From NCBI GenBank assembly GCA_000004985.1, contig GG738847.1: a DNA stretch of 64,000 nucleotides; one strand, 5' to 3'. Each line of letters opens with the position of its first letter. The first letter of the stretch is position 1. The notes beneath the pieces were generated by a model that ran no database searches, had not been told where the DNA came from, and saw nothing but the letters and a program-made list of their open reading frames with translations. Positions 31,163-36,207 of this stretch are shown one piece after another. Source of the stretch: Naegleria gruberi. Its lineage: Eukaryota. The translations under genes were made by a program, and so were the position numbers.

Positions 31163-31198
31163 TATTTGAACTGTCAAGCATCAAAGAAATTAAAAAAA

Positions 31199-32395
31199 AT
31201 GTCAAGATGCCCGCAACTACATTCTATTTCCATTATTTGTTTAGTATTGTTGTTGGTTAATCAAGCCTTGTCAAGTTACATTGCTCCGAAAACTTGTTCA
31301 TCATCAACTTCATCAGATTCGTATAAATATTGTGGACGAATTTCAATAACGGAATTAGAAACTAACTTTATCTACTCACAAGTAACAACATTTCCAACAG
31401 ATTTTATATCTGCCAAACCAAATACATGCCTCTCTATCACTCCTTCTAACTTTACCCTTGATGAACAATATCCAAATCATCAAATTATTGGAAACCCTTT
31501 CTTTTCTATCGGAAAGTATTTTAACACAACTTGGTGTACATGTCGATGGAAAAACACAACCTCCATCATTTCTACACGGAGGGAAATATGTGCCACCAAT
31601 CAAGATTCCAAAATATTTTACATTATTTCAGATTCGTATAATGTTGACAAGACGAAAGGATTTATTTTGGTGGATGACATTGTGAATGAAAATTATTTTG
31701 CAAATAATACAATTTTAATGCCAACTGCTTATGATGATAGTGTATTTATTGTAAAAGGACCTAATTTTGCATTGACAAGTTGGAAAAATGGAATTATTGG
31801 AACAGTTTCGAATAATCATCCAAAACTTTTAACAGATACTTCATTTCAATTTCAAATTAGTTCTGTGGGAAGTGGAGATAAGAATGGAATAGGAATCACT
31901 CTGAAAAATCTTTATTCCAATGATTGTGTAACTGCCTCCATTGATCCATTCACATCGGGAATTAAACTCCGAATGCAAACTTGCTCTGGAGTTACAACTT
32001 TGAAGAGGGCATCTCAGAAAGGAGATGATATTGCAAAAATTTATGCAAAACAAAAGTTTTTCTGGACTGGAAAGTTGTTATTTTCATCAGTAATTGCCAA
32101 TTCTTGTTCTGGTCAATTGGAAGCTATTGCAGTGACTAGCACAGTATTTGGATCACCTCATTTTCAATGGAAAGGAGTTCAATTTTTGACACTGAATAGT
32201 TTGAATGAAAGTAATGTGGAAAAGTTTTATTCAACAGCTTGTCTGTACGATCAGGACACTACCCTTCAAAACCAACTTGTTGACAATGATTTAGTGAGAT
32301 TTTCCTCAGCTGTGCTATTGAATCATTCGTCCAGAGTGTTAACTAATGGATTATTACTGATATTGGTATTGTTCATTGGATGCATTGTTTGTTAA
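31199..32395 (+). CDS. secreted / probably GPI-anchored surface protein
   Basis: N-terminal signal peptide (MSRCPQLHSISIICLVLLLVNQALS), Cys- and N-glyc-site-rich body, and a C-terminal hydrophobic tail (LLLILVLFIGCIVC) typical of a GPI signal. Confidence 0.6.
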   Translation: MSRCPQLHSISIICLVLLLVNQALSSYIAPKTCSSSTSSDSYKYCGRISITELETNFIYSQVTTFPTDFISAKPNTCLSITPSNFTLDEQYPNHQIIGNPFFSIGKYFNTTWCTCRWKNTTSIISTRREICATNQDSKIFYIISDSYNVDKTKGFILVDDIVNENYFANNTILMPTAYDDSVFIVKGPNFALTSWKNGIIGTVSNNHPKLLTDTSFQFQISSVGSGDKNGIGITLKNLYSNDCVTASIDPFTSGIKLRMQTCSGVTTLKRASQKGDDIAKIYAKQKFFWTGKLLFSSVIANSCSGQLEAIAVTSTVFGSPHFQWKGVQFLTLNSLNESNVEKFYSTACLYDQDTTLQNQLVDNDLVRFSSAVLLNHSSRVLTNGLLLILVLFIGCIVC

Positions 32396-32455
32396 TATTT
32401 CAGTTTTTCTCAATAATTATTATTATTCTATTGAAATAGAGTTTGAAACATGTAA

Positions 32456-34563
32456 TTACTCTTCTGATGGTGTGGATGGACTTGAGGAATTTTCCTTCTT
32501 TTTTGTTGTAACATTCTTGAGTTTGGTTCCACCTTCTTTCAATAAATTTCCTCCTTGCTTTAATTTGTTCAAACCACCAACACCTCCTTCCTTAAGCAAG
32601 TTTCCACCTTGTTTCAACTTGTTTAGTCCACCTGCTCCTCCAGCTTTCATGAGATTCATTCCTCCCTTACCTCCTTGTTTCAATTTGTTCAAACCACCAA
32701 CTCCTCCCTCTTTCAATAAGTTTCCTCCTTGTTTCAGTTTGTTTAGTCCACCAACACCTCCAGCTCTCATCAAGTGAATTCCACCTTTACCTCCCTTTTT
32801 GAGAATATTGAAACCTTGAGTCATATTTTGCTTTTGCTTATTCATCATGTTACCAATTTGTTTCATGGCTGCCTTTTCCTGTAAATCCTTAAATTCCAAA
32901 AATGTTTTCTTTTGGGCTTTCTTGAAATTTGAAAGAAGTGATTCTTGAATGGATTTGGCCACGAAACCAAGTAAGATACCCAACAATCCAAGACCAATCA
33001 AGACAAAGAAACCAAATGTAATCTTACCATTGGTTGTCTTTGGGTAAAAATCTCCATATCCAATTGTACTCAGAGTTACAAATCTTTTCATAAAATCATT
33101 ACCAAGTATAATTACATATGATTGTAAATAAATTTTCTCCTAAATATTGAAAAAACCTACGAATAATAGAATGCATCATAAAACTCCCAATTTTCCAAAT
33201 AACTAAACAATGCAGCAGCTCCCACAACATATCCTCCCAACAGTAAAATCATGTTAATAATCTGAGTAGCACCTCTATTAAAGAATGAAAACATTTTCTT
33301 TTCCAATGGTGTTAGCTCTGGATTTTTCATATTTGCCTTAATTCTCATCACTTCTTCCAAATCTCGATTTTTAGCTGTTTTGAATGTAATTACAATGGAT
33401 CTCTTAATGTAGAGCATGACTACAAATATTCCAGTACCGAAAGAGTTCATAATGGCACCTCCTACGAATGAAATCCACATACCCATGAGGGATATTCCTA
33501 GAAATCCAAAAAAGACAACCCACAGTTTACCTCCAATAGTAGTTGGTGACATATCTCCGTATCCAATGGTTGATAAGGTAACAATCATGAAATAGACACT
33601 GTTTCCATATGTCCATTTAGGATTAAATGGATCAATAGTGACATTGGCATTTCCTGTCGAATTATCAAATGAATATTCATCTAATGTTGAATTCAATAGA
33701 TTTTCCTTATATGCCAAATAATTCTTATATTCAACATCTTGTTCAATGAACATGACAGCCATAGCACCCAATGCAATGACAGCCATGATTAAGGCAAAGG
33801 AAATTAGCAATTTCAAAATATCTTTTGCAAAATCTTTCAGTGATGGCTTTTGAATATATTCCTTTGAAATGTCACCCATCAATTTATCTGAAAATCCATT
33901 CAATAATTTCATAAATTTCTTTTCCTTGACTTCATCTGCATCAGAATCCAATTCTGATTGAGTATTATCAAGTGTAGGAGCTTCCTCTTCATTGGAAACT
34001 GTTCCAGAGTTGACCAAATCGACTATTACATGTTCTCCCATGAGGTGTTCTTGAGATACTTGTGGAAATTCTCCTTGTTTCTCATCGTTATGACCTATTT
34101 CTCCTGTAAATTGTACATCTTGCTCATTATCCATCACATCCTGATCTAGTTCCGCAAGTGCCAACTCACTAACTCGTTGCTCATGCTCTACACCATTCAT
34201 AAACATGACAAATTCACTATATCCATCAATAAACTCAAACAATCGATCACAAATTCTCAATTTCCTCCTCTCTGCATCATCGCCAAAGTACAATTCCACA
34301 TAGTGTTGAATCATATTTTCAATATTTCCCGAACTTGTTGAATTGCCAAATAACTGATGAATGACATCCCATGAAACGCTCTTCAACGATGAAGGAGATG
34401 CCATTGGTGATACTGCTTCTATCCTTCCTTCATCATTCTCATCATTTTCTAAAGATAATGGTGGTGCTTCAATATAGAAATTACCAGAAAAGTCAACGGA
34501 ATCGTGTTCTCTTCCACACAATACACAAAAACATTCTCTATTCACTGTTTCCAACACTCTCAA
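32456..34563 (-). CDS. two-pore-domain K+ channel (4TM/2P) with C-terminal Gly/Lys-rich tandem repeats, 2 exons
   Basis: Two selectivity filters, TLSTIGYGD in exon 1 and TLSTIGYGD in exon 2, are each flanked by TM helices. A GTAGGT...GAAAAG intron (33084..33160) is in phase 2. The tail holds about six copies of an 18-22-aa repeat (GG.GGLNKLKQGGNLLKEGG) encoded by ~57-63-nt DNA repeats. The 5' end is uncertain because the ATG-initiated upstream ORF hits an in-frame TAA. Confidence 0.8.
32520..32790. repeat. tandem ~57-63-nt coding repeat (K+ channel tail)
   Basis: Directly visible periodicity: ccacc(t/a)cctt...aagtttcc(t/a)ccttg(c/t)tt(t/c)aa(c/t)ttgtt... The opposite-strand ORF 32376..32777 (PP.PP..FNKFPPCFNLF) is its antisense shadow. 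Confidence 0.8.
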
Positions 34564-34995
34564 TCCATTATCTTCTTCTTCTTCTTGTGGTGATGATGAT
34601 ACAGATGATGATTTATTCCTATTATTTTCCTCTCCATTATCATCATCATGATGCTGCTGTTGTTCTTGTTATGATGAATGTTCCGCTCTTCTAGTTCTAT
34701 TACATTGCTCATGTCCCCCACCACATGATGTTGTTGTTGTTGGTTTTGTGGTGGACATTTTTCTTCGAGTGACTGTTCGTTGTTGTTGTGATTTTGATGG
34801 ATGAGCTGTTAATGTGAATTGGGAAGAGCGAAGGATTTTATTGGATTGATGTGTTCAAAACCTTCTTTTGTTACTTTGACATATTTTATGCATGTGAAAA
34901 AGTTCAATAATAGTTGTGAAGAATAATTAATGTAAACAATTGCTACAAACAAAAATCAGTTATTTAATTAATTCTTCATTGTCAATTATTCCTCT

Positions 34996-36207
34996 TTATA
35001 TTGTAAGATCTATTAATTGTTTCATTTCAGTGAAGTATTTTGTTCCTTCTTCAGTAATAAAATTGTTTCTAATATCAAGTTTGGTCAATTGTTTCAATTC
35101 ACTAATGTATTTAGCTCCTTCATTACGAATCTTATTGTTATTAATATAGAGATAGATCAATTTCTTCAATTCTCCAATAGGCATAGCTCCTTTATCGCCT
35201 AAATGATTAGTTTTAATATCAAGATAGATCAATTGTTTCAATTCACTTAAATATTGAGCTCCTTCATCTCCAATTCTATTATAAGATAAATCAAGACTTT
35301 TTAATTGTGCCAATTGACCAAAATATTCAAGTCCTTCATCACCAATATCATTTTTACAAATATCAAGATTTTTCAATTGATTCAATGAACTAATGAATTT
35401 AGATCCTTCATTTCCAATACGATTGCTATTAATATGAAGAGTGGTCAATTGTTTCATTTTGCTTACATATTTAGCTCCTTCATCACCAAGCCAATTACTG
35501 GAAATATCAAGACAGGTCAATTGTGTTAATTCACTTAAATATTTAGCTCCTTCAGCACCAATATCATTTTCATCAATAGAAAGAGTGGTCAATTGTTTCA
35601 ATTCACTTATGTATTTAGATCCTTCATTACCAACACGATTGCAAAAAATAATAAGAGTGGTCAATTGTTTCAATTCTCTTAAATGTTTAGCTCCATACTC
35701 AGAAATACCATTACTAGGAATACTAAGATAGGTCAATTGTTTCAATTCACTAATATATCGAACTCCCTCATCACCAATATGACTTCCATAAATCGTAAGT
35801 TTGGTCAATTGTTTCAATTCACTTATATATTTAACTCCTTCTTCATCATCACATCTAATGATAAGTTTAGTTAATGATTTCATCAAGATTAATTTTCTAT
35901 AGGTATCCCTTGTGATCACACCAACTTTAAGAGTTGCAATATTCTGTAAAAATCGGCCACTCATTCCACCAACACCACCAAATCTACAATTCAGATTGAG
36001 ATGATTACATGTTGATAAAATAACATGGAACCACTCTTTGGATACCAATGCACAATTCATGACAATAAATTTAAAATCATCCAAGAAGGACAAAATTTCA
36101 TAAATAATGTCAGTGGGGAATTTATAATCTTGCGACAGTAAGTTCTCCGTACTTGTTTCTGCTTCTTCTTTGTGTGAAAGTTGGATACACATTGTGTGTT
36201 TGTCCAT
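34996..36207 (-). CDS. F-box + RNI-like leucine-rich-repeat protein
   Basis: N-terminal F-box (DIIYEILSFLDDFKFIVMNCALVSKEWFHVI), then about eleven 24-aa LRRs of the form LKQLT.L.I..N.IG.EGAKYISE. Confidence 0.85.
   Translation of the reverse strand: MDKHTMCIQLSHKEEAETSTENLLSQDYKFPTDIIYEILSFLDDFKFIVMNCALVSKEWFHVILSTCNHLNLNCRFGGVGGMSGRFLQNIATLKVGVITRDTYRKLILMKSLTKLIIRCDDEEGVKYISELKQLTKLTIYGSHIGDEGVRYISELKQLTYLSIPSNGISEYGAKHLRELKQLTTLIIFCNRVGNEGSKYISELKQLTTLSIDENDIGAEGAKYLSELTQLTCLDISSNWLGDEGAKYVSKMKQLTTLHINSNRIGNEGSKFISSLNQLKNLDICKNDIGDEGLEYFGQLAQLKSLDLSYNRIGDEGAQYLSELKQLIYLDIKTNHLGDKGAMPIGELKKLIYLYINNNKIRNEGAKYISELKQLTKLDIRNNFITEEGTKYFTEMKQLIDLTI
35050..35880. repeat. 72-bp coding LRR tandem array
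   Basis: A repeated DNA unit ...ttggtcaattgtttcaattcact(t/a)a(a/t)tatt(t/g)agctccttcat(t/c)accaa... recurs every 72 bp. Confidence 0.7.

What the first reader, a model, noticed from the sequence alone, without database searches (positions are those of the whole stretch)
32456..34563. Two-pore-domain K+ channel with a Gly/Lys-rich tandem-repeat C-terminal tail
Two TLSTIGYGD selectivity filters, each between TM helices, give a K2P-like 4TM/2P topology. The second pore lies on a separate exon after a 77-nt phase-2 intron. The cytoplasmic tail carries about six copies of GG.GGLNKLKQGGNLLKEGG, encoded by a visibly periodic ~57-63-nt DNA repeat. There is also a ~200-aa acidic N-terminal cytoplasmic domain. 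A repeat-tailed K2P is unusual. The repeat could be a scaffold- or lipid-interaction module, and its copy number could be polymorphic.
Basis: partly seen in the sequence, partly recalled or inferred. Interest (0 to 1): 0.6.

Follow-up and report, generated by a model that had tools for sequence, protein, structure and literature searches.

The report
Naegleria tandem-pore K+ channel, repeat tail
This is a real, already annotated potassium-channel gene of the amoeba Naegleria gruberi with two pore domains per subunit; its core is ordinary, but it carries two undescribed lineage-specific parts: a conserved glycine/lysine repeat tail and a probable zinc-binding N-terminal domain that the current gene model cuts off.

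Summary
On the minus strand, 32456..34404 encodes a 623-aa protein identical to RefSeq XP_002682402.1 ("outward-rectifier potassium channel", Naegleria gruberi NEG-M). It has two Ion_trans_2 domains, two exact TLSTIGYGD filters, four TM helices and a real 77-nt phase-2 intron (33084..33160). The intron sits at the same site in a syntenic relative and is absent from the single-ORF N. lovaniensis orthologue, so this is one gene.

The tail (32528..32812) is coding and predicted disordered, with net charge +16. It consists of ten GG-flanked modules of 7-11 aa, not six 19-mers, and the DNA period is 54/66 nt, giving 120 nt. Copies differ almost only at synonymous sites. The motif recurs in four orthologues with 6-10 modules, so it is under selection.

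Strict animal-K2P membership fails on the long SF2-M4 loop, and the cap is doubtful. It is best called a 4TM/2P channel of the K2P/TOK/TPK superfamily.

An invariant C-x2-C-x3-H...C N-terminal domain, weakly ZAD-like, starts upstream of the annotated ATG, so the gene model is probably 5'-truncated.

The tail's function is untested. My best guess is a polybasic multivalent tether that acts on the M4 extension. Interest is modest.

The parts
32456..33083 (-). CDS exon 2. It holds the second half of pore helix 2, filter 2, M4, the long post-M4 helix, the repeat tail and the Ser/Pro/Glu end. The stop codon TAA is at 32456..32458.
   Evidence: The spliced product is identical to XP_002682402.1.
33084..33160 (-). 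77-nt phase-2 spliceosomal intron (GTAGGT...AAAAG) that interrupts pore helix 2.
   Evidence: The syntenic relative L001 has an intron at the same position, 40 nt long and with unrelated sequence. The N. lovaniensis orthologue has none (single ORF).
33161..34404 (-). CDS exon 1 as annotated, starting at ATG 34404. It holds the acidic N-terminal region, M1, the M1-P1 loop with three N-x-S/T sequons, P1 with filter 1, M2, the linker, M3 and the first half of pore helix 2.
34405..34668 (-). In-frame open extension upstream of the annotated ATG. It encodes the conserved CFCVLCGREH (C-x2-C-x3-H) motif at 34504..34533. It is probably coding, which would make the RefSeq model 5'-truncated.
   Evidence: The motif is invariant in six homologues, and this is the strongest DNA block conserved with L001. 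There is no in-frame ATG between the TAA at 34669..34671 and 34404.
34669..34671 (-). In-frame TAA that closes the upstream extension. An in-frame ATG lies further up at 34758 (MSTTKPTTTTSCGGGHEQCNRTRRAEHSS*).
   Evidence: Whether it is removed by a small intron, is a strain or assembly lesion, or lies upstream of the true start is unresolved.
34246..34257 (-). RICD. It contains the invariant Cys-Asp, the putative fourth zinc ligand, at the start of the long helix of the N-terminal domain.
33745..33810 (-). M1 transmembrane helix (LLISFALIMAVIALGAMAVMFI).
   Evidence: Hydropathy, AF2 helix, coordinates.
33553..33579 (-). Selectivity filter 1, TLSTIGYGD.
   Evidence: Pfam Ion_trans_2.
33451..33534 (-). 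M2 inner helix. In the model it continues as a long helix into the cytoplasm.
33196..33261 (-). M3 transmembrane helix.
33050..33076 (-). Selectivity filter 2, TLSTIGYGD.
   Evidence: Pfam Ion_trans_2.
32957..33022 (-). M4 inner helix. The model continues it as one helix of about 80 residues, up to the start of the repeat.
32906..32929 (-). Polybasic patch NFKKAQKK on the cytoplasmic extension of M4. It is conserved in Naegleria, Willaertia and P0123.
   Evidence: The analogy with the TREK-1 and TASK-2 PIP2 patches is taken from PMC8436263.
32528..32812 (-). Gly/Lys/Leu/Asn repeat tail. It has ten GG-flanked modules of 7-11 aa with consensus xGG-Phi-N-x-Phi-K-x-GG, net charge about +16, and is predicted disordered.
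   Evidence: Module map. TRF period 120 nt. Composition G33 L18 K18 N10 in 102 aa. Synonymous versus nonsynonymous differences 39:3. pLDDT 30-40. Present in orthologues.

Best explanation
The locus is the Naegleria gruberi gene for a tandem-pore (4TM/2P) potassium-channel subunit, XP_002682402.1.

Inferred from homology: two subunits assemble so that four TIGYGD filters line one K+-selective pore.

Shown here: there are two exons joined across a 77-nt intron, and the architecture is cytosolic N-terminal region - M1 - glycosylatable loop - P1 - M2 - linker - M3 - P2 - M4 - long helix - repeat tail.

Inferred: the channel core works like K2P/TOK/TPK channels. M4 runs on into a long cytoplasmic helix carrying a conserved polybasic patch (NFKKAQKK). 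This is the position where TREK-1 and TASK-2 sense PIP2 and transmit M4 motions to the filter gate.

Shown: that helix ends in a disordered, strongly basic array (+16) of ten short GG-hinged amphipathic motifs (Phi-N-x-Phi-K). The array is maintained by purifying selection, and its module number drifts between species.

My committed reading of the tail, at roughly 0.3 on its own: it is a flexible multivalent electrostatic tether. It binds an anionic surface, either inner-leaflet acidic lipids or the channel's own very acidic N-terminal disordered segment (-24 to -50 in Naegleria species). In doing so it biases the position of the M4 extension and hence gating.

The N-terminal region contains a small folded domain with invariant C-x2-C-x3-H...C. 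It is probably zinc-binding and weakly ZAD-like, so it may be a cytosolic dimerisation or regulatory module. Its first half lies upstream of the annotated start codon.
For: Identity and single-gene status:
- The spliced product is 100% identical over 100% of its length to XP_002682402.1.
- Pfam Ion_trans_2 matches twice, E 1.1e-32.
- There are four hydrophobic TM segments and two exact filters.
- The N. lovaniensis orthologue is one 1842-nt ORF.
- L001 has an intron at the identical site and is syntenic downstream.

Fold:
- The AF2 core has pLDDT 85-97.
- The top 50 Foldseek PDB hits are all animal K2Ps, with probability 1.00 and TM-score to target up to 0.66 for TWIK-1.
- The best sequence matches in the PDB are fungal TOK (E 4.6e-21, spanning both pore domains) followed by KCNK3, 9 and 13.

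Tail is coding and selected:
- Among the four xGGLNKLKQGG and three NLLKEGG copies there are 39 synonymous and 3 nonsynonymous pairwise codon differences. That is 14 synonymously variable codon sites against 1 nonsynonymous, at only 75-82% nucleotide identity.
- The same GG-flanked Phi-x-x-Phi-K modules occur in L001 (9 modules), N. lovaniensis (about 7) and P0123 (about 6), at 53-87% core identity.

Disorder and charge:
- The tail has pLDDT 30-40 and net charge +16.
- N-terminal regions carry -29 to -50 and C-terminal regions +14 to +20 in the three Naegleria lineages.

M4 extension:
- The model has a single helix from residue 485 to 564.
- The polybasic patch is conserved.
- The role of such patches in TREK-1 and TASK-2 is described in PMC8436263.

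N-terminal domain:
- C13, C16, H20, F25, C105 and D106 are invariant.
- The AF2 model gives a hairpin, a strand and a long helix.
- The domain profile finds only 8 proteins among 1.84 billion representatives.
Against: - No functional, expression or transcript data were available. K+ selectivity, dimerisation and gating are inferred from homology only.
- A rough hand estimate of basic-hydrophobic membrane-binding propensity for the repeats, made from remembered scale values, came out low. Each amphipathic stretch is only 5-6 residues between Gly pairs, so direct lipid binding is not compelling.
- The conserved Asn in the Naegleria modules suggests specific recognition rather than charge alone.
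- The link between an acidic N-terminus and a basic tail rests on three closely related lineages. Willaertia has a basic N-terminus (+10) and a basic but Gly-poor C-terminal region (+12, 6% Gly) whose repeats are degenerate, and that gene model may be incomplete.
- The N. gruberi sequence has no in-frame ATG upstream of the conserved Cys motif, so this strain's protein may really lack half of that domain.
Confidence: 0.85

Rival explanations
1. The tail is an array of short linear motifs that recruits a specific protein partner. The partner could be a cytoskeletal polymer or an adaptor with repeated binding sites. On this view the tail anchors or clusters the channel instead of acting electrostatically on lipids or the N-terminus.
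For: - Positions are strictly conserved inside each module (GG, Phi, N, Phi, K), including a polar Asn, in three Naegleria lineages.
- The GG hinges look like linkers between binding motifs.
- Module number of 6-10 is typical of multivalent binders.
- From memory only: there are loose resemblances to WH2 (LL...LNK/LKK) and tau (K-x-G-S-x-x-N-L-K-x-x-P-G-G-G) repeats.
Against: - No Pfam family, including WH2, the tau/MAP tubulin-binding repeat and RTX, matches the tail even at E <= 10.
- Asn is not conserved in P0123 (ISKLKK, VTMLKS, MKILKN).
- The hydrophobic helix required by WH2 is replaced by glycines.
- No partner is known.
Confidence: 0.25
2. The tail is a functionally neutral low-complexity expansion. 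It would be a tolerated disordered appendix generated by duplication of a 120-nt unit, with no specific role.
For: - It is predicted disordered.
- Module number differs between species, and the region is degenerate and Asn-rich in Willaertia.
- TRF shows a duplication of about two 120-nt units.
- No similar sequence was found elsewhere.
Against: - Copies are only 73-82% identical in DNA yet nearly identical in peptide, with 39 synonymous against 3 nonsynonymous codon differences. Neutral drift would not produce this.
- The GG-flanked motif persists in orthologues with only 53-56% overall identity.
Confidence: 0.15
3. In strain NEG-M the gene is damaged at its 5' end, by a nonsense or frameshift lesion. 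It would be either a pseudogene or would express only an N-terminally truncated channel from ATG 34404.
For: - The conserved C-x2-C-x3-H block lies in an open frame with no ATG. That frame is closed upstream by TAA at 34669..34671, and a further in-frame ATG sits at 34758.
- A different frame upstream (MSNVIELEERNIHH) resembles the L001 N-terminus (ENMIELQEQHNIS), which hints at a frameshift.
- No alternative N. gruberi protein model with a longer N-terminus was found.
Against: - The remaining roughly 1.9 kb of CDS is intact, with conserved filters and strong purifying selection.
- Several GT..AG candidates, for example a 44-nt intron at 34602..34559 or a 57-nt intron at 34721..34665, could join an upstream ATG to the frame.
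- The upstream similarity lies in low-complexity sequence.
Confidence: 0.1
4. The two pore-bearing ORFs are separate genes, each encoding a 2TM/1P subunit.
For: Under bacterial ORF rules the window shows two ORFs, 33157..34563 and 32456..33091, and the second starts with an ATG.
Against: - That ATG lies inside the intron.
- The downstream ORF lacks M3 and the first half of pore helix 2, so it cannot form a pore domain.
- Splicing restores YDAFYYS|FVTLSTIGYGD exactly as in the orthologues.
- N. lovaniensis encodes everything in one ORF.
- The L001 intron is at the same site but has a different length and sequence.
Confidence: 0.02

Closest known systems
Animal K2P / KCNK channels (e.g. TWIK-1 3UKM, TREK-2 4XDL, TRAAK 3UM7)
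   Same: - 4TM/2P subunit with two Ion_trans_2 domains.
- These are the best fold matches (Foldseek probability 1.00, about 290 aligned columns, TM-score to target 0.5-0.66).
- In the sequence search most of the best non-heterolobosean named hits are animal TWK-7/KCNK17/18-like proteins (E 1e-23 and weaker).
- The M4 helix is extended by a polybasic cytoplasmic segment, as in TREK-1 and TASK-2 (PMC8436263).
   Different: [quoted passage not shown]
- Both filters are TIGYGD.
- The M1-P1 loop is 42 aa, has no Cys, and only one predicted helix. It is as short as about 17 aa in Willaertia, so a cap is doubtful.
- It has an acidic N-terminal region of more than 200 aa with a Cys/His domain.
- It has a Gly/Lys repeat tail of about 100 aa that no KCNK channel has.
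Fungal TOK1 outward-rectifier channels (PDB 9pik, 45il)
   Same: - This is the best sequence match among solved structures. One continuous alignment covers P1-M2-linker-M3-P2-M4 (E 4.6e-21).
- The P2 filter is GYGD and the filter-to-inner-helix linkers are canonical.
- The RefSeq name 'outward-rectifier potassium channel' derives from this family.
   Different: - TOK has eight TM helices, with four extra helices N-terminal to the 2P core. Here the N-terminus is soluble and acidic with no hydrophobic segment.
- Outward rectification was not tested, so the RefSeq name is an automatic transfer.
Plant TPK/KCO tandem-pore channels
   Same: From background knowledge: 4TM/2P topology, GYGD in both pores, no long SF2-M4 loop, and cytosolic regulatory N- and C-termini.
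   Different: - TPKs carry C-terminal EF-hands and an N-terminal 14-3-3 site. No EF-hand or other Pfam domain is found here.
- Several protist 2P homologues do carry EF-hands (PF13499, PF13202), but this family does not.
ZAD (zinc-finger-associated domain) of insect C2H2 proteins (PDB 7poh, 1pzw, 7po9, 6fp5, 7ppp)
   Same: - The layout is shared: a Cys-x2-Cys beta-hairpin, then a further Cys at the start of a long C-terminal helix.
- From background knowledge, ZAD is a homodimerisation module, which would suit a dimeric channel.
   Different: - The ligand pattern is C-x2-C-x3-H...C, not C-x2-C...C-x2-C.
- There is no Pfam match.
- The context is a membrane channel, not a transcription factor. 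Convergence on a generic treble-clef-like fold is likely.

Membership tests
K2P / KCNK (animal two-pore-domain K+ channels) | Four TM helices and two P-loops per subunit (M1-P1-M2-M3-P2-M4) | tested here: met
   Two Ion_trans_2 stretches. Four hydrophobic segments. AF2 helices and pore helices. Foldseek hits to K2P chains.
K2P / KCNK (animal two-pore-domain K+ channels) | K+ selectivity-filter signature T-x-G-[YFL]-G in both P-loops | tested here: met
   TLSTIGYGD at residues 276-284 and 418-426 of the 623-aa protein.
K2P / KCNK (animal two-pore-domain K+ channels) | SF2-M4 linker of 12-14 residues, against 6 for SF1-M2 (PMC8436263; TRESK is the one exception) | tested here: not met
   The two linkers, GYGD-MSPTT-IGGK and GYGD-FYPKT-TNGK, have equal length. 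In the AF2 DSSP the coil is 332-342 against 473-484, so both are canonical at about 6 residues.
K2P / KCNK (animal two-pore-domain K+ channels) | Extracellular cap made of two helices per subunit between M1 and P1, usually with an apex disulfide | tested here: inconclusive
   The M1 helix extends about 21 residues beyond the membrane (H242-291), but the rest of the 42-aa loop is coil with pLDDT 46-62. The loop has no Cys. It is about 30 aa in N. lovaniensis and about 17 aa in Willaertia.
K2P / KCNK (animal two-pore-domain K+ channels) | Dimeric assembly and background (leak) K+ current | not testable with these tools
   Only monomer prediction was available, and there is no electrophysiology.
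TOK (fungal 8TM/2P outward rectifiers) | Four additional TM helices N-terminal to the 2P core (8TM in total) | tested here: not met
   There is no hydrophobic segment in the 195 aa, or at least 248 aa with the extension, before M1. This region has net charge -24 to -32.
TOK (fungal 8TM/2P outward rectifiers) | Sequence similarity across the P1-M2-M3-P2-M4 module | tested here: met
   9pik_A, E 4.6e-21, query residues 264-485 aligned to chain residues 298-514.
TPK/KCO (plant tandem-pore channels) | C-terminal EF-hand Ca2+-binding motifs | tested here: not met
   No EF-hand family appears in Pfam scans of the whole protein or of the C-terminus.
ZAD (zf-AD) zinc-binding dimerisation domain | C-x2-C ... 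C-x2-C zinc site and the zf-AD sequence profile | tested here: not met
   The invariant residues are C13, C16, H20 and C105, a CCHC-type pattern. There is no Pfam hit at E <= 10.
ZAD (zf-AD) zinc-binding dimerisation domain | ZAD fold (hairpin zinc knuckle plus long C-terminal helix) | tested here: inconclusive
   [not shown]
Known Gly-rich or basic tandem repeats (RTX nonapeptide, WH2, tau/MAP tubulin-binding repeat) | Match to the family profile | tested here: not met
   A Pfam scan of the tail alone returned 0 families at E <= 10. HMMER's filters and bias correction are harsh on this composition, so weak similarity cannot be excluded.

The most novel reading that the evidence does not exclude
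Heterolobosean amoebae have a distinct, undescribed class of tandem-pore K+ channel with two lineage-specific cytosolic modules attached to a canonical 2P pore. One is an N-terminal zinc-dependent (CCHC, ZAD-like) dimerisation or sensor domain followed by a highly acidic disordered segment. The other is a C-terminal array of 6-10 GG-hinged basic motifs. The oppositely charged disordered arms would form an electrostatic latch, or a multivalent tether to lipids or the cytoskeleton, that gates the channel through the M4 extension. Such a latch could respond to ionic strength, zinc or redox state, or cell-shape change during amoeboid movement.
Probability: 0.12. Interest if true: 0.55.

Novelty: new variant of a known kind. 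Interest (0 to 1): 0.33.

Why it matters
The channel core is a routine member of the tandem-pore K+ channel superfamily and has been in RefSeq since the 2010 genome, so the headline finding is not new.

Three points are new, though modest.
1. A family restricted to Naegleria-type heteroloboseans couples a 2P pore to a selected, disordered Gly/Lys repeat tail and to a Cys/His N-terminal domain. That domain is found in only about 8 of 1.84 billion representative proteins.
2. The family lacks the long SF2-M4 loop and probably the cap that characterise animal K2Ps. It therefore sits between K2P, TOK and TPK, which is useful for reconstructing how 2P channels diversified.
3. The RefSeq gene model is very likely 5'-truncated and omits half of the conserved domain.

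If the tail proves to be a gating tether, it would be a simple natural example of regulation of a K+ channel by a repeat-encoded disordered region. This matters little beyond channel evolution and Naegleria biology. N. fowleri is a pathogen, but I did not examine its orthologue here.

Tried and rejected
1. Searching the 5.8-billion-protein collection with the tail alone found only 40 word-sharing candidates and nothing at E <= 0.01, not even the protein itself. Low-complexity correction makes this null result weak.
2. A metagenome scan with exon 2 gave 335 pattern matches but no relative by tblastn.
3. Pfam scans of the tail, the N-terminal domain and the post-M4 helix gave no family. The only near-hit was a chance SopE_GEF match at E 0.11. 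The remembered resemblances to RTX (GGxGxDxUx), WH2 (LL..LKKV/LNKT) and tau repeats (KxGS..NLKH.PGGG) are therefore not supported, and I dropped them as classifications.
4. I tried to resolve the 5' end. Enumerating ATG + GT..AG combinations gave 33 frame-compatible solutions, none distinguished by good splice signals. A third homology search with the N-terminal extension returned only P0004 and P0005 and no alternative N. gruberi model. The 5' end remains unresolved.
5. A Foldseek search of the N-terminal domain against AFDB50 could not run because the library was unavailable.
6. Literature searches for the accessions and for Naegleria plus K2P or tandem-pore channels found nothing about this protein.
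7. The plus-strand 133-aa Pro-rich ORF at 32376..32777 is rejected as the mirror image of the repeat. The minus frame is continuous with the channel, is conserved in orthologues, and shows synonymous-only variation.
8. A membrane-binding (basic-hydrophobic) estimate made by hand from remembered scale values came out low. It was not computed with a tool, so it counts only as a caveat.
Full report
**What is there**

The window has 33% G+C and is eukaryotic. On the minus strand, two ORFs that a bacterial ORF finder reports separately (33157..34563 and 32456..33091) are joined by a 77-nt GT...AG intron at 33084..33160. Exon 1 ends in phase 2.

Starting at the first in-frame ATG (34404), the spliced CDS gives a 623-aa protein. 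It is 100% identical over its full length to XP_002682402.1 / EFC49658.1 / UniProt D2V059, [quoted passage not shown]. The window is therefore N. gruberi nuclear DNA, and the gene is already annotated with exactly this exon structure.

**Check of the observation**

- Pfam finds Ion_trans_2 twice (E 1.1e-32).
- The motif TLSTIGYGD occurs exactly twice, at residues 276-284 and 418-426, corresponding to 33553..33579 and 33050..33076.
- Hydropathy shows four TM segments. The M1-P1 loop carries three N-x-S/T sequons, which fits an extracellular location.
- The region before M1 is soluble and acidic, with net charge -24.

The repeat is real but was mis-described. It consists of ten GG-flanked modules across 32528..32812: FNILKKGG, KGGIHLMRAGG, VGGLNKLKQGG, NLLKEGG, VGGLNKLKQGG, KGGMNLMKAGG, AGGLNKLKQGG, NLLKEGG, VGGLNKLKQGG, NLLKEGG. 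That is four xGGLNKLKQGG cores and three full 18-aa composites, not about six 19-mers. The core spacing is 54/66/54 nt, and TRF calls a 120-nt period with about 2 copies and 78-85% matches.

**One gene, real intron**

- The intron cuts pore helix 2 (YDAFYYS|FVTLSTIGYGD). M3 and the first half of the helix are on exon 1, and the filter and M4 are on exon 2. The downstream ORF's ATG lies inside the intron. Neither ORF could make a pore domain alone.
- The N. lovaniensis orthologue (P0002, 56% identity) is encoded by a single uninterrupted 1842-nt ORF.
- A close, syntenic Naegleria relative assembled from SRR25266747 (L001; 85-87% amino-acid identity in the core, colinear downstream genes) has an intron at the identical codon position. 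That intron is 40 nt long and unrelated in sequence.

This is what a genuine intron flanked by constrained exons looks like.

**The tail is coding and under selection**

The four xGGLNKLKQGG copies and three NLLKEGG copies are only 82% and 75% identical in DNA, yet almost identical in peptide. Pairwise there are 39 synonymous and 3 nonsynonymous codon differences. Counted by site, 14 codon positions vary synonymously and 1 varies nonsynonymously.

The same architecture, xGG-Phi-x-x-Phi-K-x-GG, is present in:
- L001, with nine modules (it lacks KGGMNLMKAGG);
- N. lovaniensis, with about seven modules;
- P0123, a 600-aa heterolobosean orthologue with 53% identity, with about six modules.

In Willaertia magna the region is degenerate and followed by an Asn-rich tail.

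The 102-aa tail is 32% Gly, 18% Leu and 18% Lys, with net charge +16. AlphaFold gives it pLDDT 30-40 with no secondary structure.

It matches no Pfam family. Neither a word-indexed search of 5.8 billion proteins nor a metagenome scan found it elsewhere. The first of these did not even recover the query's own protein, so that null result is weak.

**Structure and family placement**

With a 58-sequence alignment, the AF2 model has a confident channel core (pLDDT 85-97). Foldseek against the PDB returns only animal K2P chains at the top: TREK-2, TWIK-1, TRAAK, THIK-1 and TASK-1/3, with probability 1.00 and TM-score to target up to 0.66.

By sequence, the best solved relative is the P1-M2-M3-P2-M4 module of fungal TOK (E 4.6e-21), followed by KCNK3, 9 and 13.

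Two hallmarks of animal K2Ps listed in the review PMC8436263 were tested.
- The uniquely long SF2-M4 linker (12-14 residues against 6) is absent. Both linkers here are equal and canonical (GYGD-MSPTT-IGGK and GYGD-FYPKT-TNGK; coil 332-342 against 473-484).
- The two-helix cap is doubtful. M1 extends as a helix about 21 residues beyond the membrane, but the rest of the 42-aa loop is low-confidence coil with no Cys. The loop is only about 30 aa in N. lovaniensis and about 17 aa in Willaertia.

TOK membership fails because there are no extra N-terminal TM helices. TPK membership fails because there are no EF-hands.

The protein is therefore best described as a 4TM/2P member of the K2P/TOK/TPK superfamily. 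The RefSeq name is an automatic transfer and not evidence of outward rectification.

**How it probably works**

The following is inferred from homology. A dimer forms a pseudo-tetrameric K+-selective pore with four TIGYGD filters.

In the model, M4 continues as one helix of about 80 residues (485-564). This helix carries a conserved polybasic patch (NFKKAQKK, 32906..32929) and ends exactly where the repeats begin. In TREK-1 and TASK-2 the equivalent basic M4 extension binds PIP2 and couples to the filter gate (PMC8436263).

I therefore propose that the repeat tail is a flexible, multivalent polycationic tether. It would engage an anionic surface, either acidic lipids or the channel's own acidic disordered N-terminal segment, and so bias the M4 extension. 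In the three Naegleria lineages the N-terminal regions carry -29 to -50 and the C-terminal regions +14 to +20.

This step is inference, and I put it at about 0.3. The rivals are:
- a motif array for a specific protein or cytoskeletal partner (about 0.25), favoured by the conserved Asn;
- neutral low complexity (about 0.15), disfavoured by the synonymous-only divergence.

**N-terminal domain and gene-model problem**

All longer homologues share C-x2-C-x3-H, then a W, then [RV]-x-C-D. C13, C16, H20, F25, C105 and D106 are invariant in six sequences.

In N. gruberi the C-x2-C-x3-H block (CFCVLCGREH, 34504..34533) lies 100-129 nt upstream of the annotated ATG. It is in the same frame and is the most conserved DNA block in the 5' region when compared with L001.

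That frame is open up to a TAA at 34669..34671 and contains no ATG. A further in-frame ATG lies at 34758, and another frame upstream resembles the L001 N-terminus. The RefSeq model is therefore very likely 5'-truncated. A small unannotated intron, an indel or nonsense lesion in NEG-M or its assembly, or genuine truncation remain possible. I could not decide between them.

A profile of the domain finds just eight proteins among 1.84 billion representatives. Six are these channel homologues, of which P0004 and P0005 are N-terminal fragments. The other two are multi-stretch matches that I took, without checking, to be low-complexity. A ZAD-like dimerisation or zinc-sensing role is a tentative lead.

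**Novelty and verdict**

The gene and its channel nature are already in the databases. No paper in the searchable library mentions it.

Three things are new: the characterisation of a selected GG-hinged basic repeat tail shared by Naegleria-type orthologues, a lineage-restricted Cys/His N-terminal domain, and the likely 5' mis-annotation. The core is ordinary and the accessories are a new variant of a known kind. Interest is modest at 0.33.

Noticed in passing
window 34405..34760 (minus strand): The RefSeq CDS starts at ATG 34404, but the invariant CFCVLCGREH motif (34504..34533) is encoded upstream in the same open frame. That frame has no ATG, is closed by TAA at 34669..34671, and has an in-frame ATG at 34758. 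A different frame (MSNVIELEERNIHH, ATG 34712) resembles the relative's N-terminus. The gene model is probably 5'-truncated, or the strain or assembly carries a lesion.
   Followed up: partly
[not shown]
   Followed up: partly
window 32376..32777 (+): A 133-aa Pro-rich ORF (…PPCFNLFKPPTPPS…) lies antisense to the repeat tail. It is the mirror image of the Gly-rich coding repeat (GGN codons read as NCC), not a gene.
   Followed up: yes
window 34996..36207 (minus strand); L001 5174..6157: The neighbouring gene encodes a 403-aa F-box-like plus LRR_6 protein (Pfam LRR_6 E 3e-40). In the syntenic relative a similar LRR gene lies on the other side of the channel gene, between it and the next conserved gene. 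This suggests local rearrangement or turnover of LRR genes.
   Followed up: partly
window 31166..32395 (+): This 409-aa ORF has a hydrophobic N-terminus, many N-x-S/T sites and a hydrophobic C-terminus, and no Pfam match. It is conserved and syntenic in L001 (6457..7266, about 73% in tblastx). It is possibly a lineage-specific surface glycoprotein.
   Followed up: no
L001 3900..3910: The relative's channel ORF changes frame by one base inside ATATATATCAAAAG, in the region of the M1-P1 loop, with no room for an intron. This is probably an assembly error in the Logan contig. It explains why its predicted protein P0004 stops at 359 aa.
   Followed up: partly
tool behaviour: the search for homologous proteins did not return the query's own protein P0001, either for the low-complexity tail or for the N-terminal query that shares 135 identical residues with it. 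Null results from that tool for these regions should therefore be read cautiously.
   Followed up: no
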